Shown: positions 1,290-29,170 of the stretch, piece after piece
Position numbering within the stretch: position 1 is the stretch's first letter
How the letters are laid out: every line of letters begins with the position of its first letter
Assembly (NCBI GenBank): GCA_021814695.1
Contig: JAKAHY010000002.1
Location: 8,920 to 72,919, forward strand
DNA length: 64,000 nt
From: a bacterium
Lineage (GTDB): Bacteria > Patescibacteriota > Minisyncoccia > UBA6257 > JAGOQP01
Reading direction: 5' to 3'
The notes under the pieces: generated by a model
The model's input: only the letters and a program-made list of their open reading frames with translations
Told to the model about the DNA's origin: nothing
Database searches by the model: none
Made by a program: the position numbers and the translations under genes

Positions 1290-1751
1290 CTATTTTCCTT
1301 TCATTATTTGCATTATGAGGCCTCTTCCTCCCGGTCTTATTGTTGTTGTAACCTGATAATCTGCACTGATCATTTTTATAAAATCGTTGAATCTTTTTCT
1401 GGCCCAATCCTGATTGTATTTCTCCCTGCCCCTTAAGGCCATCATTATTTCAACTTTATTTCCTTTCTCAAGAAATTCTTCCGCCTGGAGTGCTCTGATT
1501 TTAAGATCGTTATCGGCAGCTCTTGGAGTTATTCTTACCTGTTTTAACTCTCCGGTTGGTTTGTGCGCACGCTTCTTCTCCTCTTTTCTTTGTTGATATC
1601 GGAATTTATCGTAGCTGATTATTTTTACTACCGGCGGTTTGATATTAGGTGCGATTTCAACCACATCCAGCCCTTTTTCTTCGGCTAGTGCAAGTGCCTC
1701 AGAGAGTTTCATAACGCCCAAATTAGCTCCTGCTTCGTCAACCACGCGCAC
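1290..1751 (-). CDS. infC: Translation initiation factor IF-3; the true start is probably a non-AUG codon (AUU/AUC) some 10-15 codons upstream (to about 1796)
   Basis: VRVVDEAGANLGVM..LALAEEKGLDVVEIAPN..PPVVKI is conserved IF-3 sequence. The upstream in-frame extension ...YVRINQRITASEV continues the IF-3 N-domain, and the codon at 1749-1751 is GTG. Confidence 0.9.
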   Translation of the reverse strand: MRVVDEAGANLGVMKLSEALALAEEKGLDVVEIAPNIKPPVVKIISYDKFRYQQRKEEKKRAHKPTGELKQVRITPRAADNDLKIRALQAEEFLEKGNKVEIMMALRGREKYNQDWARKRFNDFIKMISADYQVTTTIRPGGRGLIMQIMKGK

Positions 1752-1873
1752 TTCTGATGCCGTAATTCTTTGGTTGATTCTGACGTAGTTATCGATGGTG
1801 AGTGGCGTTACTGTTTTTAACGTCCATTAGATTAACACACAAATAAGCCGTTTGCAATACTTTTGCGGCTGAT

Positions 1874-1902
1874 AAAAAAAGCCCACCGGTGTTCTGGTGG
1901 GG
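1874..1902 (-). terminator. Rho-independent terminator of the GC-rich small gene
   Basis: Minus strand CCCACCagaacaccGGTGGGcttttttt. Confidence 0.6.
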
Positions 1903-1930
1903 CGCCTCGTTGGAGGCGGTTGGGAAGCGC

Positions 1931-2152
1931 TTAGCCGCGCTTCGCTTTGGAGGATGCCGAGACCTTGTGAGTCCCGGCGACGGCCACGCCGCGGTTGGCG
2001 GTGGCCAGGTCGGCCTGAGTCCTCCGCTTGGCCGCCCGGTTCGCGTGCTTGACGCTGTGACGGTCCTTGGGCGCGGTCTTGCCGCAGCGCCCGTTGGGGT
2101 GGCGGTTGCCGCCACCCGAAACCCGACAGTGACACAGTTCGCACACGGCCAT
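1931..2152 (-). CDS. Small basic Cys-containing protein (73 aa) encoded by a 65% GC, GC3-rich ORF; resembles ribosomal protein bL28 (GK...SV.H..R..KRR ... V.V.GT.K....SSKAK)
   Basis: Strong SD GGGAGGTG lies 6 nt upstream of the ATG, with its own promoter and terminator. The sequence MAVCELCHC..CGKTAPKDRHSVKHANRAAKRR..GVAVAGTHKVSASSKAKRG fits bL28 loosely. Two other-frame ORFs over the same DNA are GC-rich artefacts. Confidence 0.5.
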   Translation of the reverse strand: MAVCELCHCRVSGGGNRHPNGRCGKTAPKDRHSVKHANRAAKRRTQADLATANRGVAVAGTHKVSASSKAKRG

Positions 2153-2190
2153 ATTACACCTCCCTTGTCGTTTGATTTACCGCTTTTTAT

Positions 2191-2219
2191 AACATAGCAT
2201 AACTAACTACATTTGTCAA
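2191..2219 (-). promoter_or_regulatory. Sigma70-like promoter (TTGACA-17-TATGTT) for the GC-rich small gene
   Basis: Minus strand reads TTGACAaatgtagttagttatgcTATGTT, about 40 nt upstream of the SD/ATG. Confidence 0.45.
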
Positions 2220-2246
2220 TATTTATGGGAAAACAAAATCACCCGC

Positions 2247-2275
2247 AAGGGGTGATCTTATTTTTGTGGAGATGG
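2247..2275. terminator. Terminator hairpin downstream of the GIY-YIG gene
   Basis: ATCACCCgcaaGGGGTGAT flanked by T-runs on both strands. Confidence 0.5.
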
Positions 2276-2290: not shown

Positions 2291-2530
2291 CTAAACTAAA
2301 TGCTTGTTTCTAAAAGCTATTCCCGAACCACTTTTCAGATATTTTTCAAAGTTGATCGCCTGTTCCTTGTTATGAAAAGTGCAGTGCCAAGCAATAATAA
2401 ATGGCGCTCTACTTGAGCTATATTTGGAACCATAACTATTATGTTCCAATAGTCTTTTCTTAATATCAATTGTGATGCCCGTATAGAAACTCCCATCTTT
2501 TAAACTGCGAAGAATATAGACAAAATACAT
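2291..2530 (-). CDS. GIY-YIG nuclease family protein (small, stand-alone)
   Basis: MYFVYILRSLKDGSFYTGITIDIKKRLLEHN matches the GIY-YIG motif arrangement; 79 aa. Confidence 0.8.
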   Translation of the reverse strand: MYFVYILRSLKDGSFYTGITIDIKKRLLEHNSYGSKYSSSRAPFIIAWHCTFHNKEQAINFEKYLKSGSGIAFRNKHLV

Positions 2531-2622: not shown

Positions 2623-2672
2623 AATGCTTCTTGTGCAAGGAGTGCTTGCACTACGAAGCCTTGGCGAAGTAG

Positions 2673-2988
2673 TGGAGATGGCGAGAGTTGAACTCGCGTC
2701 CAGAAAGAGGGATTGAAAGCGTCTACGGGCGTATCTTCTTTTGGAAGCTGATTTGCTTTCTGATTGTCCCTACGGATACGAAAGCGCTTTCCGTGGGTAA
2801 GCCTCAAATATAACACCGGCGATTTCCCCATGAGACATCGGGAGCCGATGGCTTACGCACGAACTAAAAAGTTCTTAAGCGTATGCAAGTGCTACATTTC
2901 TGTTAGCAGATTTGTTTTGGCGGATTTACAAGTCGCCGCTTGACCCGCAACTTTCAAAGAACTCTATCTGTCAAAGCCCAGCATCCCC
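2673..2988 (-). ncRNA. ssrA: tmRNA (SsrA), about 316 nt, encoding the tag ANRNVALAYA*
   Basis: 5' GGGGAUG pairs with 3' CAUCUCC-A and includes the G3·U Ala identity pair. T-arm is GCGAG-TTCAACT-CTCGC. 5' domain reads CUGGGCUUUGACAG. Tag ORF is GCU AAC AGA AAU GUA GCA CUU GCA UAC GCU UAA, followed by the hairpin GAACUuuuuaGUUC. It lies immediately 3' of smpB. Confidence 0.85.
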
Positions 2989-3498: not shown

Positions 3499-5643
3499 AT
3501 GAAAAAATCTTCATTAATCGTGGTCATTTTGCTTGTTGTGGCAAGCGTAGGAATGACCGTCATCTTTTCAAATCAAGTGTCGATAAAGGGATTTCTATCG
3601 AGCGTTTATTCTACTGCATCAGGCAGAAATCATATACAGCTGGCAAACGCTCAGTCCTTGGGACAGGGGGTTGTAGTTTTTAAAGCGCAATTTGGCCATT
3701 TGGAAGCAACCGGCCAAGTTGTCTCCGGTATTTCCGGACTAGCGGGGCTGCCGGTGACAAAATTTGTTCCCGACAGAGACCTTTCGGATTCTGAAAAAAA
3801 GCAGGTTGAAGTAAACATCACCGAAGAGAACACCGTTTTCGGATTTATTGTGGCAAAAAACGTTTCATTAGGGCAGGGAATCGGTTTTAACATTCCCCAA
3901 GGAGAAGTTTATAACTACGGTTTTTATGTGAATTCCGACATCCTTCCTCAAGGATGGACATATAACTCTTCTTGCGTAGAGACGGGAGGAAATATTAAAT
4001 TATCTGCCGGCCAACAAAGCGAATGCACGATAGGTTTTTATCTGAAACCAACGCCTGCGCCGGTTACTCCTCCCGCTTCGACGTCCACTCCCGTCTCACC
4101 TCAGGAAGGAGCGTCAGGTACCGTTATTAGTGAAGATTCCGGTTCTGGATCGCTGCAGTTTGTAAAAAATATTTTGGACTTAAGTACGGGGTGGAAAAAC
4201 CCCGGATCGGATAAAATATTGGACGCAAAAATCGTTGAATTATACGGAAAGAAATTTCTTATTGTTTCGACTCAAAACAAACATTTGCTTGTTTACGATG
4301 CTTCAAACCAGTTTTCGCCGGTTCTTTTGAAAGATAATGATTTATCAGGCAGTAACGTGTCGGCGTTTTATCTTGTGGTTTTAGATAATTTCAATTACGT
4401 ATTTGCCTGGGGAGGAAACTCTGCCAACTACGGATCTTTTAAGATTGAACAAGACGGATCTGCGTCTCTGGTAAAAAGTTACAAACCTGACCAATATAGC
4501 GTTACTCAACCGAATTTGGTTTTCGGGTTGTTTAGAGGGTTAGACGGTAAAGCGTATGGATTTGGAGGGAACGGGGGCGATGGATGGCTAACTATTTATG
4601 ACGTGTCCGATCCGGCAAACATCAGCGAAATTGGATCATATCAAGATGGCTTAGTCGGGAATCACTGCGGCAATTATGGTCTGATTGGATTGGACAGGCC
4701 GCTTCAATGGAATACTTCTCAACAAGGGAACAAGCTTTATCTGGTAACTCATGCGGACCAGTGCGTCCAGCGGCTGCATACTTCCGGAGACGCCAGAATT
4801 TATATTTTTGACGTTTCTGATCCAAAAAATCCGCAGCTTTCCCATCAATATGAGCTTTCCGGTTCTTTTAACCACATACCTTCGGACGCGACTAAGGCCG
4901 AACAGACATTTCTTTTTGGCGGGATCGCCGACATTGCCGTTGATTCAAATTCGGGTAAGGTTTTTGATTTTTACAGGACGGTTTTTGATTGGCAGGGGCC
5001 ATCCTGGTCTCAGATAGCAAACATAGTGCATGGTACTTTGTTTAGATACAGAACCGGACTGGTCACTCTTTCACTGCAATCGGACGGTTCTCTAAAAGAA
5101 TTGTCGCGGGCTTTATTGTGCGAACAAAAGGGCCCAATGTATGATGGTGGCGGTCCGCAATATTATCGATGCGGCGACGTGGATGGAAACGACAAAAATA
5201 CCCAAGGCGGATATGATTATTCGGCAAGAAATTCTCAACAAAATTACAACGGAGTTTTTCTCCTCAGTGGGCCGGGAAATAGCGGTCAGGTGGGCTTACT
5301 AAGGAGTGATAATAGTTTTGTTGTCATTCCCGATACCGCCGGAGAGATGACTAAATTTAAGACGGCTATTAAAGATTCATCTTATTATTCGAATATCTAT
5401 AATCCCGCTATCAATGGTGTTGTGACCCAGGTTGACAGTAAAACATTTGCCATCTATCAATTTGATAGTTATTCGTTAAGCGTCGTTAAGGTTTTGTTGT
5501 CGCAATCTCTTGTGGGGGGATCGAAAAATCCCTCTCCTCCAGTGACCGGAGTTGCGCCTTCGGCAAACGTACCACTAACATCACCCGCATTTTCATTTAA
5601 TGCGCTCCTGAACATCTTCAGAAGGATACTTAACAACTACTAA
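3499..5643 (+). CDS. Cell-surface protein, paralog A: N-terminal signal-anchor, P/T-rich linker, LVIVD-like beta-propeller repeats, conserved C-terminal tail
   Basis: Repeats of the type LTIYDVSDPANISEIGSY and IYIFDVSDPKNPQLSHQY; N-terminal TM MKKSSLIVVILLVVASVGMTVIF; C-terminus ...SPAFSFNALLNIFRRILNNY. Confidence 0.8.
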   Translation: MKKSSLIVVILLVVASVGMTVIFSNQVSIKGFLSSVYSTASGRNHIQLANAQSLGQGVVVFKAQFGHLEATGQVVSGISGLAGLPVTKFVPDRDLSDSEKKQVEVNITEENTVFGFIVAKNVSLGQGIGFNIPQGEVYNYGFYVNSDILPQGWTYNSSCVETGGNIKLSAGQQSECTIGFYLKPTPAPVTPPASTSTPVSPQEGASGTVISEDSGSGSLQFVKNILDLSTGWKNPGSDKILDAKIVELYGKKFLIVSTQNKHLLVYDASNQFSPVLLKDNDLSGSNVSAFYLVVLDNFNYVFAWGGNSANYGSFKIEQDGSASLVKSYKPDQYSVTQPNLVFGLFRGLDGKAYGFGGNGGDGWLTIYDVSDPANISEIGSYQDGLVGNHCGNYGLIGLDRPLQWNTSQQGNKLYLVTHADQCVQRLHTSGDARIYIFDVSDPKNPQLSHQYELSGSFNHIPSDATKAEQTFLFGGIADIAVDSNSGKVFDFYRTVFDWQGPSWSQIANIVHGTLFRYRTGLVTLSLQSDGSLKELSRALLCEQKGPMYDGGGPQYYRCGDVDGNDKNTQGGYDYSARNSQQNYNGVFLLSGPGNSGQVGLLRSDNSFVVIPDTAGEMTKFKTAIKDSSYYSNIYNPAINGVVTQVDSKTFAIYQFDSYSLSVVKVLLSQSLVGGSKNPSPPVTGVAPSANVPLTSPAFSFNALLNIFRRILNNY

Positions 5644-5687: not shown

Positions 5688-5698
5688 TGTGATATAAT
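5688..5698 (+). promoter_or_regulatory. Extended -10 promoter TGTGATATAAT (copy 2)
   Basis: gaaTGTGATATAATgaaacaaATGaaaaaaac. The first ATG (5697) lies inside the -10 box, so the start at 5709 is preferred. Confidence 0.45.
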
Positions 5699-5708
5699 GA
5701 AACAAATG

Positions 5709-8321
5709 AAAAAAACATTACTCATCGGGTTTATTGTGGTCGGCATTGTAAGCTTTTCGGCATTTACCGCGCATGCTCAGTCGGTCAATTATCTTAGTAA
5801 ATTTTTTGCAGATGTCTACGGAGCGTTTTTTGGGAATTCCCAAACGCAAAAAGTTGACGCCCAAACAGTGGGTAATGGAACACTTACTATTCATGCTCAG
5901 ATATGTCAGACGCTCGGGAATTTCGAAAATCCAAGCAGTGCGACCTGTTCTGGTACTCCTCGCGACCCCAATTCTACGGAGTCTCCGTTATTTGTTTATG
6001 ATGTCCAGCGCATAGTTGGGAATGGAGCGAGCGCTCAAGTTACCACAGTTCTTTCAGGTATCGGTCCCGGACAAAGTTATTCGTTACCGGCGAATACTCC
6101 AAACGCTAGTAATAATAACAGAGATGAGTACGTGATTGTGTTTAAGGGGGCACCGACAAATTATTTGTACGTGAGACAAGGAGGAAATTTTGATTTGCCC
6201 TATAAATTTTCAATTTCTTCCGGACAAAATACTCAAGTAAATATTCCTTATGTTATTTATACGGCGATTGAATCAACGGGTCCTGTTGGCACTACTGTTA
6301 CCGCCGATATTGTTGATGGCAATGGAAATTTTGTCAGAGCGCTGACGGCTTCAGAAATTCAATCGGTATCCTTTGACATCCAGCATTCGGTTCCGGCCAC
6401 CGGAGGATATGTCGGATCGCATGCGAACAATTTTGATACTCAAGTTTCTTCGGGAAAATTAAATACTTCATATCAGCTTGCGACCTATGTCCATTCCGGT
6501 TCAATTTTGACAAATATTAAGCCACCATCCGGTTACGTAGTCAGATCAATTAAGCCGGGAACATATTTTGATCCTACTGATGACGTTACTATTCATTTTA
6601 CCAAGTCTCCTGTTTCGTCTCAGGTTCAAAAAGTTGATCAAATGCTCTATGTTCCTAATGGAATTAGCTATGTAAAAAAAATAGCTCAAACATATTCGGA
6701 CAATGAATACAAATATTCGAATCTTGACGTTGATTTATTTGCTTATTATGGAAACAATAATCGTCCTTTTCCCTTGAACTGGACAGTTGCCAAATATTCG
6801 GGAGTTCCTTATTTGTTTATGAATGGAGCAGGAAAGATAGTTATTTATAATATTTCCGATCCTAAAAATCCCAAACAAGTTAGTGAATATGTTCTTTCCG
6901 GTTTGGAAAAATTTAATCAATACAAAGATCGTCAGGGAAATACTTATGGACAGTGTTCTCCTAACCAAGAAGGTACTCATGATTTTATAACTGGAGCCGG
7001 TAAAGTTTTTGCTCTTGATGATTCCCCTTATCTTTTGATTGACATTCAGAGACCGGGTGGGCCAGGCCCTGGAGGGACGGCAGTTTTGTCCTTAGATCCT
7101 TCAACTATGGCCATAACCGCCTATCCTCAATGGACCGAGTGTAACAGTGGTCAAGATACTCCCGGAACCGCTTTCGGAATGTATAAAGGAAGTGACGGAA
7201 ATACTTATTTTATTTCCCAATTCCCGAATAATGCATATGATACGGGTGGAGTAGATACCGGGAATATTGGTATTTACACAATCAATTCTGCTGGTATTGC
7301 CAATAAAGTTGTCGTTCTCAGCGGAATGTCCGGGATTGCTCCGAGTTTGGATTATTCTAATGGAACAATCTCTGTTGTTTCCGTTGGAAGTAAAAAATAT
7401 CTTATTGGTAATGGAAAATCATCTATCGCAAACATAAATTCGACCAGTGCACCAATTTATATTTACGATATTTCCAATCCAAAAAATATAATCAAAATCA
7501 ATCAACAGATCACGGTGTCTACGTCTGGGTCCGGCAGATTAAAAATTGACGAACAAGCCAATCGTATGTATGTTCAGTCATCCATTCCAAATCCTGCCGC
7601 AACATCAACTTCGTACACCATCCCCAAAACATTACCTATTTGGCAGGTATATGACTTGAGTGTTTTGCCCAGTACTCCAAAATTAATTGCTACTTATAAC
7701 AAACCAACCGACCTACTTAATTCAAGTCAAGTGAATGCTGATTTTTCTCAAATTACCAAGAGATTAAATATTGCATCGTCAGGTAATCTTGTGGATATAA
7801 ATAATTCTTCTTTCACTTACGGCGCCTACGGATATTCTTCTTCACTCCAGTTGATAAATGTTTCAAATAATTTAGCTTATATATCACTGTATACAAACGG
7901 AAAAAACCCTTGGGATACGATTGCCAATCAAGCCGGAGTAACGGACGGAAGCGAATACGGGACCAATGCTATTCAATTTATAGTTGACGTGTCCAATGCG
8001 TCCAGTCCCAAAATACTTGGAATGATATTCGGGCATACGGAATATTCTGCTTACGGACTTTCCGCCGGCGGATGGTTTGATGTTCCTCTTTACGGAAGTA
8101 TCTATAACTATAACGGATATATTTACCGAGCCAATTTCCGCATCGCTGATGTATGGAAATTGGGGAATCCTCCGGCCCAAAGTACGGGAGGTGCTGGAAG
8201 TGGGGCTGGTGCGAGCGGCACTGGAACTACCGAAGGAGGATCTGCGCCATCATCAGTTCAATCTCCATTTTCTTTCAGTTCTCTTTTGAAGATATTCCAG
8301 AGAGTGTTTAATAATCAATAA
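5709..8321 (+). CDS. Cell-surface protein, paralog B: cleavable signal peptide, LVIVD-like repeats, conserved C-terminal tail (the ORF track starts at 5697)
   Basis: Signal peptide MKKTLLIGFIVVGIVSFSAFTAHA|QS; repeats IVIYNISDPKNPKQVSEY and IYIYDISNPKNIIKI; G/S/T-rich linker; C-terminus ...SPFSFSSLLKIFQRVFNNQ. Confidence 0.8.
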   Translation, partial: KKTLLIGFIVVGIVSFSAFTAHAQSVNYLSKFFADVYGAFFGNSQTQKVDAQTVGNGTLTIHAQICQTLGNFENPSSATCSGTPRDPNSTESPLFVYDVQRIVGNGASAQVTTVLSGIGPGQSYSLPANTPNASNNNRDEYVIVFKGAPTNYLYVRQGGNFDLPYKFSISSGQNTQVNIPYVIYTAIESTGPVGTTVTADIVDGNGNFVRALTASEIQSVSFDIQHSVPATGGYVGSHANNFDTQVSSGKLNTSYQLATYVHSGSILTNIKPPSGYVVRSIKPGTYFDPTDDVTIHFTKSPVSSQVQKVDQMLYVPNGISYVKKIAQTYSDNEYKYSNLDVDLFAYYGNNNRPFPLNWTVAKYSGVPYLFMNGAGKIVIYNISDPKNPKQVSEYVLSGLEKFNQYKDRQGNTYGQCSPNQEGTHDFITGAGKVFALDDSPYLLIDIQRPGGPGPGGTAVLSLDPSTMAITAYPQWTECNSGQDTPGTAFGMYKGSDGNTYFISQFPNNAYDTGGVDTGNIGIYTINSAGIANKVVVLSGMSGIAPSLDYSNGTISVVSVGSKKYLIGNGKSSIANINSTSAPIYIYDISNPKNIIKINQQITVSTSGSGRLKIDEQANRMYVQSSIPNPAATSTSYTIPKTLPIWQVYDLSVLPSTPKLIATYNKPTDLLNSSQVNADFSQITKRLNIASSGNLVDINNSSFTYGAYGYSSSLQLINVSNNLAYISLYTNGKNPWDTIANQAGVTDGSEYGTNAIQFIVDVSNASSPKILGMIFGHTEYSAYGLSAGGWFDVPLYGSIYNYNGYIYRANFRIADVWKLGNPPAQSTGGAGSGAGASGTGTTEGGSAPSSVQSPFSFSSLLKIFQRVFNNQ

Positions 8322-28846: not shown

Positions 28847-28875
28847 TTGACTAATATGTTATATTATGTTAATAT
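28847..28875 (+). promoter_or_regulatory. Sigma70-like promoter TTGACT-17-TAATAT for the GC-rich small membrane-protein gene
   Basis: TTGACTaatatgttatattatgtTAATAT; SD AAAGGAG lies 7 nt before the ATG at 28898. Confidence 0.45.
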
Positions 28876-28897
28876 TATGGCAGAAAGGAGATTGCCC

Positions 28898-29116
28898 ATG
28901 AACAGCACGAATAAGCGGAGGGGTTGGATCGGCGTGATCGGGGCGGCGGGGTTGGCGGTTCTGTTATACGCCAACACTCTCAATGTTGTGGCTCATATGG
29001 CCAGCGGCCGCGGCTCGTTGGGTTTGGGCATCCCGCTCGCCCTCATATTCGGTGGCGGGACCTACTTCTTCGGGGACATCGCGCTCAAGAAGGCGAGGTA
29101 TCTCGCCAGCCACTAG
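28898..29116 (+). CDS. Small 2-TM membrane peptide (72 aa) encoded by about 63% GC, GC3-rich DNA (the ORF track's longer ORF starts inside the promoter)
   Basis: MNSTNKRRGWIGVIGAAGLAVLLYANTL...GLGIPLALIFGGGTYFFGDIALKKARYLASH; own promoter, SD and terminator. Confidence 0.5.
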   Translation: MNSTNKRRGWIGVIGAAGLAVLLYANTLNVVAHMASGRGSLGLGIPLALIFGGGTYFFGDIALKKARYLASH

Positions 29117-29140
29117 CAGTTCTTTGTTTCGTTCGACGTG

Positions 29141-29170
29141 AACGGTTCTACGGAGCCGTTCCTTTTTTTA
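29141..29170 (+). terminator. Rho-independent terminator
   Basis: AACGGttctacggagCCGTTccttttttta. Confidence 0.65.

What the first reader, a model, noticed from the sequence alone, without database searches (positions are those of the whole stretch)
1868..2233. 65% GC, GC3-rich mini-gene (bL28-like zinc-ribbon protein) embedded in about 38% GC DNA with its own promoter, SD and terminator
Nucleotides 1931-2152 are strikingly GC-rich, with codon third positions almost all G/C, against an AT-rich background. The frame with a strong SD (GGGAGGTG, 6 nt before the ATG) encodes MAVCELCHC...CGKTAPKDRHSVKHANRAAKRR...GVAVAGTHKVSASSKAKRG. Its spacing of conserved residues resembles ribosomal protein bL28, but the C-terminal Cys pair is replaced by Ser (zinc-independent-like).

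A near-consensus TTGACA-17-TATGTT promoter and a clean terminator flank it, and it sits directly upstream of infC-rpmI-rplT. It is either a recently acquired foreign ribosomal-protein paralog or another compact module. The composition contrast is extreme.
Basis: partly seen in the sequence, partly recalled or inferred. Interest (0 to 1): 0.65.

Follow-up and report, generated by a model that had tools for sequence, protein, structure and literature searches.

The report
GC-rich zinc-knuckle mini-gene, not bL28
A real 73-codon gene for a very basic protein with a probable zinc-binding motif sits as a 70% GC island in 41% GC DNA; it is not ribosomal protein L28 and not a recent import, but belongs to an undescribed gene family seen so far only in Patescibacteria (CPR bacteria), whose members are GC-rich wherever they occur.

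Summary
Window 2152-1931 (-) is a 73-codon ORF with 69% GC and GC3 0.85 in a 41% GC window. It is the strongest GC peak in 64 kb and has its own promoter, Shine-Dalgarno (SD) site and terminator, upstream of infC-rpmI-rplT.

The bL28 reading fails. Pfam, NCBIfam and PDB sequence searches give no L28 match, and hhalign gives about 1% probability. One related contig carries a canonical bL28 about 4 kb from its family member.

Recent foreign origin is not supported either. Four relatives (66-82% identity) keep the gene, three demonstrably just upstream of infC, with GC3 0.77-0.88, while flanking genes are near synonymous saturation.

Exhaustive searches found about 50 small basic proteins with CxxC-x10-H-x4-[C/H], GGGNRH and RGVAVAG motifs. 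All named hosts are Patescibacteria. In 22 of 22 loci the CDS is more GC-rich than its flanks, beyond what amino-acid content explains, and the 5' UTR stays AT-rich. Codon order makes the mRNA more stable than synonymous shuffles in 15 of 15 genes.

Best reading: a new family of probable zinc-knuckle, probable nucleic-acid-binding mini-proteins whose mRNA is held GC-rich and structured. Function is inferred, not shown.

The parts
2191..2219 (-). Sigma-70-type promoter: TTGACA (2219-2214), 17-nt spacer, TATGTT (2196-2191), with TG before the -10 hexamer. The transcription start is predicted near 2184.
   Evidence: Consensus scan, 10 of 12 matches. TTGACA and the -10 region are conserved in L001-L003. 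Near-consensus promoters also lie upstream of distant family members.
2153..2184 (-). AT-rich 5' UTR carrying the SD GGGAGGTG (2164-2157).
   Evidence: Sequence. The 60 nt before the ATG are 33% GC here and 41% on average over 22 loci, at or below flank GC. An SD-like GGAGG/GGGGG/AGGAG lies before the start codon in nearly all of the 22 loci.
1931..2152 (-). CDS of a 73-aa basic protein (pI 11.3). It has a predicted zinc knuckle C4-x2-C7-x10-H18-x4-C23, the motif GGGNRH (residues 13-18), the motif RGVAVAG (54-60) and a KVSASSK tail. Stop codon TAA is at 1933-1931.
   Evidence: ORF and GC3 0.85. Homologs at 66-82% identity. Family of about 50 proteins with C4, G15 and H18 invariant. dN/dS is 0.25-0.59, third positions change most often, and the one indel is in frame. 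It is the only copy in the window.
1903..1918 (-). GC-rich 3' UTR hairpin CGCCUC-CAAC-GAGGCG between the stop codon and the terminator.
   Evidence: Sequence and MFE fold. Conserved in L001 and L002 but not in L003 or L030. The 40 nt after the stop are 70% GC.
1872..1901 (-). Intrinsic terminator: stem CCCACC...GGTGGG followed by a T run.
   Evidence: Terminator scan. Compensatory changes in the stem among relatives.
1290..1751 (-). infC, the downstream neighbour, followed by rpmI (1286-1104) and rplT (1077-733). These are context, not part of the module. A conserved infC promoter/leader lies at about 1800-1860.
   Evidence: ORFs. Pfam IF3_N/IF3_C, L35p and L20 on the identical locus L005 and on L002. 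The sequence downstream of the terminator is conserved in L001-L003.
2230..2262 (.). Hairpin terminator of the upstream gene, with A and T runs on both sides (stem 2238-2256). It insulates the mini-gene from the GIY-YIG gene (2530-2291) and tmRNA (2988-2670).
   Evidence: Terminator scan. tmRNA. GIY-YIG Pfam match, 5.4e-14.

Best explanation
The 73-codon ORF is a real, independently transcribed gene. It encodes a very basic mini-protein of an undescribed family found so far only in Patescibacteria. The family shares an N-terminal CxxC-x10-H-x4-[C/H] knuckle enclosing an invariant GGNRH loop, a variable Lys/Arg-rich linker, a conserved RGVAVAG motif and a Ser/Lys-rich tail.

I infer that the protein binds one zinc ion and acts by binding nucleic acid, either RNA or the ribosome, or DNA. 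Neither point is shown.

The GC richness is a conserved property of the family and not a scar of recent transfer. It starts at the ATG, runs through the CDS and 3' UTR, and spares the promoter and 5' UTR. It is carried largely by synonymous sites, and the order of synonymous codons adds further folding stability. The most likely cause, again inferred, is selection on the message itself for a compact, GC-rich, heavily base-paired and probably long-lived mRNA behind an open AT-rich leader and a strong SD. This selection would work against the genome's AT-biased mutation pressure.
For: Coding and family:
- The frame is open in all relatives, the only indel is 6 nt, third positions change most, and dN/dS is 0.25-0.59.
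- Profile searches recover about 50 proteins of 64-116 aa with invariant C4, G15 and H18 and near-invariant C7, V11, R17, R54, G55, V58 and G60.
- Median pI is 11.1.
- AlphaFold is confident only for the knuckle, with pLDDT about 75-80.
- All named hosts are Patescibacteria: Parcubacteria group, Saccharibacteria, Niyogibacteria and Paceibacterota.

Vertical retention:
- infC or its leader lies directly downstream in L001, L002 and L003, and smpB lies upstream in L002 and L003.
- Flanking genes show pS 0.50-0.70 and dS 0.8-2.0, while the mini-gene shows pS 0.39-0.44 for the same genome pairs.
- GC3 is still 0.77-0.88 in these relatives.

Family-wide GC excess:
- CDS GC exceeds distant-flank GC in 22 of 22 loci, with means of 0.64 against 0.46. 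Mean GC3 is 0.76 and mean 5' UTR GC is 0.41.
- In the 13 loci tested, GC3 exceeds the expectation from local codon usage, with z from 2.3 to 7.9.

RNA level:
- The window CDS folds at -0.48 kcal/mol per nt, against -0.23 +/- 0.04 for 55 control gene segments from the window.
- Native CDSs are more stable than synonymous-codon shuffles of themselves in 15 of 15 family genes, mean z -1.63. Controls give mean z -0.32, sd 1.25. Welch t is about -4.3 by my arithmetic.
- The whole transcript folds with z = -3.2 against dinucleotide shuffles.

A second, unrelated mini-gene in the same window (28898-29116) and its 76%-identical homolog both have GC3 0.82 in 41% GC DNA.
Against: - No expression, zinc-binding or nucleic-acid-binding data exist, so the protein's function rests on composition and motif type only.
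- No specific RNA structure is conserved. The 9-bp hairpin over the GGGNRH codons exists only in the closest relatives, and covariation appears only in the terminator.
- Codon order does not systematically open or close the SD (mean z 0.0 over 21 loci).
- The 15 shuffle tests are not phylogenetically independent.
- Third-position singleton changes run 13 from G/C to A/T against 1 the other way. GC3 is therefore eroding in terminal branches, which also fits slow amelioration of an old import.
- Saccharibacteria members show a much weaker excess (GC3 0.55-0.62).
- The family looks sporadic. A motif scan found 5 hits among 185,579 species genomes, which argues against a core function.
- In E. coli, strong ORF-wide structure goes with lower, not higher, translation efficiency (from memory), so the benefit of such a message is unclear.
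Confidence: 0.5

Rival explanations
1. Old horizontal acquisition from an unknown GC-rich donor (organism, plasmid or phage), now slowly ameliorating. On this view the GC richness is historical and has no function.
For: - The composition is extremely atypical.
- Net G/C to A/T flux at third positions is 13:1 in terminal branches.
- Distribution is sporadic and neighbours vary outside the close clade.
- An IS481-type transposase lies next to the copy in L001, and a GIY-YIG gene lies next to it in the window.
- Saccharibacteria copies look more 'ameliorated'.
Against: - No homolog was found outside the family among 1.84 billion representatives.
- No family member was confirmed among viral-contig matches to the motif pattern.
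- The GC-rich tract starts exactly at the ATG, while the promoter and 5' UTR are host-like and AT-rich.
- GC3 stays at 0.77-0.88 across lineages whose flanking genes have dS of about 1-2. A rough neutral two-state decay would predict about 0.5-0.6 (my estimate).
- Synonymous divergence is lower than in the neighbouring genes.
- Codon order adds structure beyond composition.
- A second, unrelated mini-gene shows the same trait.
Confidence: 0.2
2. GC-biased gene conversion or another DNA-level bias at a local recombination hot spot raises GC without any selection on RNA or protein.
For: The GC excess affects all three codon positions and the 3' UTR. The gene sits at a rearrangement-prone junction, with a GIY-YIG insertion in the window and an IS481 replacement in L001.
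Against: - The boundaries coincide with the ATG and the terminator rather than tapering.
- The same excess follows the gene into unrelated genomic contexts in different Patescibacteria lineages.
- The synonymous-shuffle signal is not predicted by a composition-only process.
Confidence: 0.1
3. It is a divergent or zinc-type paralog of ribosomal protein bL28.
For: There is a short local resemblance, C..(T/C)G..PV.G(N/G)NR(S)HA, to the bL28 N-terminus. The protein is small and basic and lies next to ribosomal and translation genes in this clade.
Against: - No Pfam or NCBIfam L28 match for any of 40 members.
- hhalign probability is 0.2-1.4%.
- No PDB ribosomal hit.
- A canonical bL28 co-occurs on contig L068.
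- Outside the close clade the neighbours are unrelated to translation.
- The family is rare.
Confidence: 0.03
4. The functional product is a structured non-coding RNA, or a dual-function RNA, and the ORF is incidental or secondary.
For: GC-rich islands in AT-rich genomes are classically RNA genes (general knowledge). The predicted fold is very stable, -142 kcal/mol for 311 nt with z = -3.2. Synonymous sites are constrained. The 3' UTR is GC-rich.
Against: - No Rfam match even at E <= 10 beyond noise.
- There is a clear coding signature and deep protein-level conservation at 30-45% identity with invariant Cys/His/Gly, where the DNA is no longer alignable.
- No compensatory pairs occur outside the terminator, and no hairpin is shared across the family.
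- A strong SD is present in nearly all loci.
Confidence: 0.07
5. It is a hok-like type I toxin message: a stable, folded-back mRNA whose SD is sequestered until processing, controlled by an antisense RNA.
For: The single-sequence MFE fold pairs the SD with a CUUCCC element just after the stop codon, while the five-sequence consensus fold pairs it with a CCUCC in the SASS codons. There is a weak plus-strand promoter-like site at 1832-1861 facing into the gene. The gene is monocistronic with a strong promoter.
Against: - The product is hydrophilic and basic, not a membrane peptide.
- Native codon order does not lower SD accessibility relative to synonymous shuffles (mean z 0.0, 21 loci).
- The anti-SD elements are not conserved in distant members.
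- The plus-strand 'promoter' is the reverse complement of the conserved infC promoter region.
Confidence: 0.03

Closest known systems
Small zinc-finger mu-proteins of prokaryotes, for example the C(P)XCG proteins of Haloferax volcanii such as HVO_2753, and the related 'putative Zn-ribbon RNA-binding protein' family PRK14890 (PMC11241148)
   Same: Similar size (under about 90 aa), a single Cys-knuckle-based predicted zinc site, little other fold, stand-alone genes, and function mostly unknown. Two of 40 family members give weak matches to NCBIfam HVO_2753 (E 2e-4) and PRK14890 (E 2e-3).
   Different: The window protein itself matches neither model. The second half-site is H-x4-[C/H] rather than a second C(P)XCG. 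The GGGNRH loop, the RGVAVAG motif and the Ser/Lys tail are specific to this family. It is bacterial, seen only in Patescibacteria so far, and GC3-anomalous.
Ribosomal protein bL28 (Pfam PF00830)
   Same: Small and basic, with an N-terminal Cys followed about 10-14 residues later by a G-N-x-R-x-H-like stretch. In this clade the gene lies beside infC-rpmI-rplT.
   Different: There is no statistically supported similarity. The C-terminal beta-rich part of L28 is absent. A true bL28 co-occurs with a family member on one contig. The phyletic distribution is sporadic.
Zinc-knuckle ribosomal proteins such as bL36 (CxxC-x12-C-x4-H; pattern recalled from memory)
   Same: The same kind of two-half-site knuckle with a 4-residue second spacer, strong basicity, and low stand-alone fold confidence.
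   Different: No sequence or profile match. The ligand order differs. This is an analogy only.
Compositionally atypical genes from horizontal transfer (genomic islets)
   Same: A sharp GC and GC3 discontinuity against the host genome.
   Different: The gene is retained with its GC3 across diverged relatives, three of them demonstrably next to infC. No donor lineage was found. The anomaly is bounded by the ATG and the terminator, and it is shared by all family members in hosts of 39-61% GC.

Membership tests
Ribosomal protein bL28 (PF00830) | Significant match to the curated family model | tested here: not met
   No Ribosomal_L28 hit in Pfam at E <= 10 for the window protein or its 3 closest relatives, and none at E <= 0.1 for 40 members. 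NCBIfam gave no hit at E <= 10 for the window protein and none at E <= 0.1 for 40 members. A true CPR bL28 fragment from L068 scores 28.8 bits against PF00830 in the same kind of search.
Ribosomal protein bL28 (PF00830) | Profile-level similarity to bona fide L28 sequences or solved L28 chains | tested here: not met
   hhalign of A4 against B. subtilis and E. coli L28 gives probability 1.4% and 0.2% over 16-18 columns. PDB profile searches returned no ribosomal chain.
Ribosomal protein bL28 (PF00830) | It is the genome's L28, so no separate canonical rpmB exists | tested here: inconclusive
   On contig L068 a canonical bL28 lies about 4 kb from a family member, so the family does not replace bL28 there. 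No rpmB was found in this 64-kb window, and the rest of the genome is not available.
Ribosomal protein bL28 (PF00830) | Physical presence in the 50S subunit | not testable with these tools
   Needs ribosome proteomics or cryo-EM.
C(P)XCG / HVO_2753-type zinc-finger mu-proteins | Match to the NCBIfam HVO_2753 or PRK14890 model | tested here: not met
   The window protein gives no hit. Only 2 of 40 relatives give weak hits, E 2e-4 and 2e-3.
C(P)XCG / HVO_2753-type zinc-finger mu-proteins | At least two C(P)XCG knuckles | tested here: not met
   There is one CxxC (often CxxCG) knuckle. The second half-site is H18-x4-C23/H (alignment A4).
C(P)XCG / HVO_2753-type zinc-finger mu-proteins | Binds zinc | not testable with these tools
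   C4 and H18 are invariant, C7 is at least 90% conserved, and C23 is usually C and otherwise H. This is suggestive only.
Recently acquired foreign gene (horizontal-transfer islet) | Absent from close relatives at the same locus | tested here: not met
   Present directly upstream of infC or its leader in L001, L002 and L003, with smpB upstream in L002 and L003.
Recently acquired foreign gene (horizontal-transfer islet) | Homologs in a donor lineage whose composition matches | tested here: not met
   The exhaustive HMM search and the word-indexed search found only family members, and their contigs are 39-61% GC. None of the 6 viral-contig matches to one family motif pattern is a family member.
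Recently acquired foreign gene (horizontal-transfer islet) | Atypical composition including regulatory flanks | tested here: inconclusive
   The CDS and 3' UTR are atypical, but the promoter and 5' UTR are host-like, 33% GC here.
Structured non-coding RNA | Match to a described RNA family | tested here: not met
   Rfam found nothing at gathering thresholds. At E <= 10 only three sub-threshold chance-level hits appeared.
Structured non-coding RNA | Covariation supporting a conserved secondary structure | tested here: inconclusive
   With five close sequences, compensatory changes appear only in the terminator and in a few scattered pairs. The coding-region hairpins are conserved but not covarying, and they are not shared by distant members.
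Type I toxin mRNA (hok-like) | Small hydrophobic toxic peptide, with the SD sequestered by fold-back | tested here: not met
   The product is hydrophilic with pI 11.3. SD accessibility does not differ from synonymous shuffles.

The most novel reading that the evidence does not exclude
Some Patescibacteria carry a class of monocistronic mini-genes, at least this zinc-knuckle family and the unrelated 72-aa membrane mini-gene at 28898-29116. Their messages would be under selection for extreme GC content and base-pairing independent of the protein. They could be RNase-resistant long-lived mRNAs for a starved or episymbiotic lifestyle, or dual-function RNAs. The zinc-knuckle protein itself would be a lineage-specific ribosome- or nucleoid-associated factor.
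Probability: 0.25. Interest if true: 0.75.

Novelty: new variant of a known kind. Interest (0 to 1): 0.52.

Why it matters
A GC3 of 0.85 that persists in a 41% GC genome, while neighbouring genes reach synonymous saturation, is a rare natural case. Synonymous sites of a protein gene seem to be held far from mutational equilibrium, the effect is confined to one small transcript, and it recurs in every member of the family.

If selection on the mRNA is the cause, this gives a clean and experimentally recodable system for asking what message-level GC content and structure buy a bacterium with a minimal RNA-decay and translation apparatus.

It also flags an unannotated family of probable zinc-binding proteins in Patescibacteria. 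Small proteins of this group are almost unstudied, and in a GC-rich islet a gene caller could in principle pick a shadow ORF instead: the three shadow frames in the window are 102-108 aa, longer than the true 73-aa ORF.

Practically, the result removes a false 'extra ribosomal protein / recent HGT' annotation.

Tried and rejected
- **bL28 membership.** Rejected.
- **Known RNA family.** Rfam gave nothing at gathering thresholds or at E <= 10.
- **Phage and defence libraries.** PHROGs gave only noise and PADLOC gave nothing.
- **Structure route.** Two AlphaFold runs on alignments of 16 and 40 sequences gave pLDDT 66 and 63. Only the knuckle was moderately confident, and Foldseek against PDB found nothing. 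I ran no further search on a low-confidence model.
- **P0006.** This 2171-aa hit with 10 matched stretches is a trimeric-autotransporter-type repeat protein. I read the match as spurious low-complexity similarity and discarded it.
- **The search for related loci.** It failed three times. Its tblastn confirmation with the 73-aa query was too strict in genome contigs and metagenome contigs, and alignment A4 was too diverse to yield a search pattern. A back-translated DNA pattern for C-x2-C-x3-V-x-GGG[ND]RH replaced it.
- **Overlapping or antisense genes.** Alternative frames are open only as expected for 70% GC. The same-register antisense frame is open in 14 of 15 genes simply because TTA, CTA and TCA codons are absent.
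- **Conserved gene neighbourhood.** None was found beyond smpB in the close clade.
- **Conserved GGGNRH-codon hairpin.** It is present only in the nearest relatives.
- **SD sequestration or opening by codon choice.** No signal.
- **Host taxonomy.** Cluster look-ups of the window's own rplT and smpB returned no names. Assignment of the window to Patescibacteria therefore rests on the hosts of family members, not on a marker-gene placement.
- **Literature.** Searches found no description of this family or of GC-rich mini-genes in CPR bacteria.
Full report
**1. Observation**

The minus strand of window 2152-1931 carries a 73-codon ORF, MAVCELCHCRVSGGGNRHPNGRCGKTAPKDRHSVKHANRAAKRRTQADLATANRGVAVAGTHKVSASSKAKRG. 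Its GC is 0.69, with GC1/2/3 = 0.64/0.60/0.85. Its neighbours infC, rpmI, rplT, smpB and a GIY-YIG gene have GC 0.34-0.44 and GC3 0.34-0.48.

The 64-kb window averages 41.4% GC. Over 200-nt windows the sd is 0.052 and the peak of 0.715 lies over this gene, at about 5.8 sd. The next island reaches 0.61. Redrawing synonymous codons from the window's own usage predicts GC3 0.41 +/- 0.06 and GC 0.54, against observed values of 0.86 and 0.71, so GC3 lies at z = 7.9. Roughly half of the GC excess therefore comes from Gly/Ala/Arg/Pro-rich protein composition and half from synonymous choice.

- TTGACA-17-TATGTT, with an upstream TG, at 2219-2191.
- SD GGGAGGTG at 2164-2157.
- A terminator at 1901-1872.
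- infC-rpmI-rplT downstream; a GIY-YIG gene, tmRNA and smpB upstream.

**2. Is it coding?**

Yes.
- Four relatives (82, 82, 73 and 66% identity) keep the frame open, and the only indel is 6 nt.
- Substitutions concentrate at third positions, for example 12/8/23 and 17/21/31 by codon position, and dN/dS is 0.25-0.59.
- An exhaustive HMM search of 1.84 billion representatives, a second word-indexed profile search and back-translated motif scans recover about 50 proteins of 64-116 aa at 28-45% identity. At that distance the DNA can no longer be aligned.
- These proteins share CxxC-x10-H-x4-[C/H], GGGNRH, RGVAVAG and a Ser/Lys-rich tail. C4, G15 and H18 are invariant.
- The window contains one copy.
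- Alternative frames are open only as expected at 70% GC.

**3. Is it bL28?**

No.
- No Pfam, NCBIfam or PDB-sequence match exists for the protein, for profiles of 4 or 40 sequences, or for the 40 members scanned singly.
- hhalign against B. subtilis and E. coli L28 gives 1.4% and 0.2% probability over 16-18 residues.
- Contig L068, which carries a family member, also encodes a canonical bL28 about 4 kb away (PF00830, 28.8 bits against a cut-off of 27).

The resemblance C...PV.G.NR.HA is a short motif-level similarity and does not amount to family membership.

**4. Is it a recent import?**

The evidence points away from this.
- In L002 and L003 the gene lies between smpB/tmRNA and infC. In L001 the infC side is kept and an IS481-type transposase replaces the other side.
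- For the same genome pairs the flanking genes have pS 0.50-0.70 (dS 0.8-2.0), while the mini-gene has pS 0.39-0.44. GC3 nevertheless remains 0.77-0.88 in all five close homologs.
- A rough two-state neutral decay towards 0.41 would give about 0.5-0.6 after that much divergence. This is my estimate, not a tool result.
- No homolog was found outside the family, and no family member was confirmed among viral-contig matches to the motif pattern.
- All hosts that carry names are Patescibacteria: Parcubacteria group, Saccharibacteria (three), Niyogibacteria and Paceibacterota.

One caveat applies. Polarised third-position singletons run 13 from G/C to A/T against 1 the other way. Erosion is therefore visible in terminal branches, and an ancient transfer with slowed amelioration cannot be excluded.

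**5. The GC anomaly is a family trait**

In 22 of 22 loci the CDS is more GC-rich than the distant flanks. The means are CDS 0.64, GC3 0.76 and flanks 0.46. The 60 nt before the ATG average 0.41, and 0.33 in the window. GC3 exceeds the expectation from local codon usage in all 13 loci tested, with z from 2.3 to 7.9. The effect is weakest in Saccharibacteria, where GC3 is 0.55-0.62.

The tract begins at the start codon and runs through the 3' UTR to the terminator. The promoter and leader are host-like. Most loci read show a near-consensus promoter and an intrinsic terminator, and nearly all show a strong SD. Neighbouring genes are not conserved outside the close clade.

**6. RNA-level signal**

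- The window CDS folds at -0.48 kcal/mol per nt, against -0.23 +/- 0.04 for 55 control gene segments.
- When synonymous codons are permuted among positions of the same amino acid, keeping both protein and codon composition, the native sequence is more stable in 15 of 15 family genes, with mean z -1.63. Controls from the window give mean z -0.32 and sd 1.25. Welch t is about -4.3 by my arithmetic, and the family genes are not fully independent.
- The full transcript has z = -3.2 against dinucleotide shuffles.
- No specific structure is shared. The 9-bp hairpin GGGUGGCGG/CCGCCACCC that encodes GGGNRHP exists only in the nearest relatives. Compensatory changes are seen essentially only in the terminator.
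- Codon order neither opens nor closes the SD (mean z 0.0, 21 loci).

The signal is therefore generic stability and does not point to a defined RNA fold.

**7. Mechanism**

Shown:
- The gene is a separate transcription unit by sequence signals.
- It is a conserved coding gene.
- The product is very basic, with pI 11.3 and a family median of 11.1.
- It has a conserved C2HC-type motif. AlphaFold gives only that knuckle moderate confidence, with a helical or disordered remainder.

Inferred:
- The protein binds one zinc ion.
- It binds nucleic acid, whether ribosome or RNA, or DNA.
- Its message is kept GC-rich and base-paired by selection, most plausibly for stability. The AT-rich leader and strong SD keep initiation efficient.

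**8. Rivals**

- **Old transfer with slow amelioration (0.2).** Supported by the 13:1 flux, the sporadic distribution and the adjacent mobile genes. Weakened by the ATG-bounded tract, the lack of any donor, the reduced synonymous rate and the shuffle signal.
- **gBGC or another DNA-level bias (0.1).** It does not explain the sharp boundaries or why the trait follows the gene into unrelated loci.
- **ncRNA or dual-function RNA (0.07).** No Rfam match and no covariation, and the coding signal is strong.
- **bL28 paralog (0.03) and hok-like toxin mRNA (0.03).** Each fails its defining tests.

**9. Comparison with known families**

The nearest known kind is the prokaryotic small zinc-finger mu-protein, such as the Haloferax C(P)XCG proteins including HVO_2753 (PMC11241148). 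Only 2 of 40 members give weak matches to those models, the window protein gives none, and the second half-site differs. No Pfam, NCBIfam, PHROG or PADLOC family covers the protein. Literature searches found no description of the family or of GC-rich mini-genes in CPR bacteria.

**10. A second case**

The second-highest GC3 among all ORFs of at least 40 aa in the window belongs to another monocistronic mini-gene at 28898-29116 (+). It encodes 72 aa that look like a two-span membrane protein, has GC3 0.82, and lies next to an ECF-type sigma factor gene. Its 76%-identical homolog in L071 also has GC3 0.82 in 41% GC DNA. In L019 another GC3-rich, Cys-rich 81-aa ORF lies directly upstream of the family gene. 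These cases hint that the trait may characterise a class of small genes in these genomes.

**11. Verdict**

The feature is real and the composition contrast is genuine and unusual. The bL28 and recent-HGT interpretation is wrong. The gene founds, or belongs to, an undescribed mini-protein family with a probable zinc knuckle, seen so far only in Patescibacteria, and it has a conserved and unexplained synonymous GC and structure bias. Interest is moderate. The protein alone would be a routine 'hypothetical' protein, but the persistent GC3 anomaly is a good and testable puzzle.

Noticed in passing
window 28898-29116 (+); promoter-like sequence about 28848-28880, terminator hairpin about 29136-29170; homolog L071 1319-1537: A second monocistronic GC-rich mini-gene of 72 aa that looks like a two-span membrane protein. 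GC is 0.61 and GC3 is 0.82, the second-highest GC3 of all ORFs of at least 40 aa in the window. It lies next to a divergently oriented sigma-70/ECF-type gene (28683-28123). A 76%-identical homolog in a 41% GC contig keeps GC3 0.82. It has no Pfam family.
   Followed up: partly
window 2291-2530 (-): A 79-aa stand-alone GIY-YIG domain gene (Pfam 5.4e-14) sits between tmRNA and the mini-gene in this genome. The spacing in relatives L002 and L003 leaves no room for it, so it looks like a lineage-specific insertion of a possibly mobile gene.
   Followed up: partly
L001 4280-5161 (-), directly upstream of the mini-gene homolog at 5281-5502: An IS481-type transposase (rve domains) replaces the smpB/tmRNA side of the locus in one relative, while the infC-side sequence is retained. 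This junction appears prone to rearrangement.
   Followed up: no
window 2670-2988 (-): A tmRNA whose ARAGORN-predicted tag peptide is EAYPRKALSYP. This does not end in the usual ...LAA-type motif, so either the tag is unusual or the resume codon is mispredicted.
   Followed up: no
window 3499-5643 (+) and 5697-8321 (+): Two adjacent large predicted surface proteins of 714 and 874 aa, the first with a faint LVIVD-repeat hit. They share a similar C-terminal motif (...SPAFSFNALLNIFRRILNNY and ...SPFSFSSLLKIFQRVFNNQ), which may be a common sorting or anchoring signal.
   Followed up: no
L019 2215-2460 (-), immediately upstream of the family gene: In a Saccharibacteria contig another small ORF of 81 aa precedes the family gene. 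It is Cys-rich (CGGCGEQENGFCKRYPDP...GHCP) and GC3-rich, with GC3 0.79 in a 46% GC contig. It may be a further GC-rich mini-gene.
   Followed up: no
window 1832-1861 (+): A weak plus-strand promoter-like site (TTAACA-18-AATACT, 9 of 12 matches) faces into the mini-gene antisense. It is the reverse complement of the conserved infC promoter region, so it is probably incidental.
   Followed up: partly
L068 13604-13783 (+): A canonical Patescibacteria bL28 (MAKICEITGKTSLVGGRYSNRV...), cut off by the locus end, lies about 4 kb from the family member on a 402-kb contig.
   Followed up: yes
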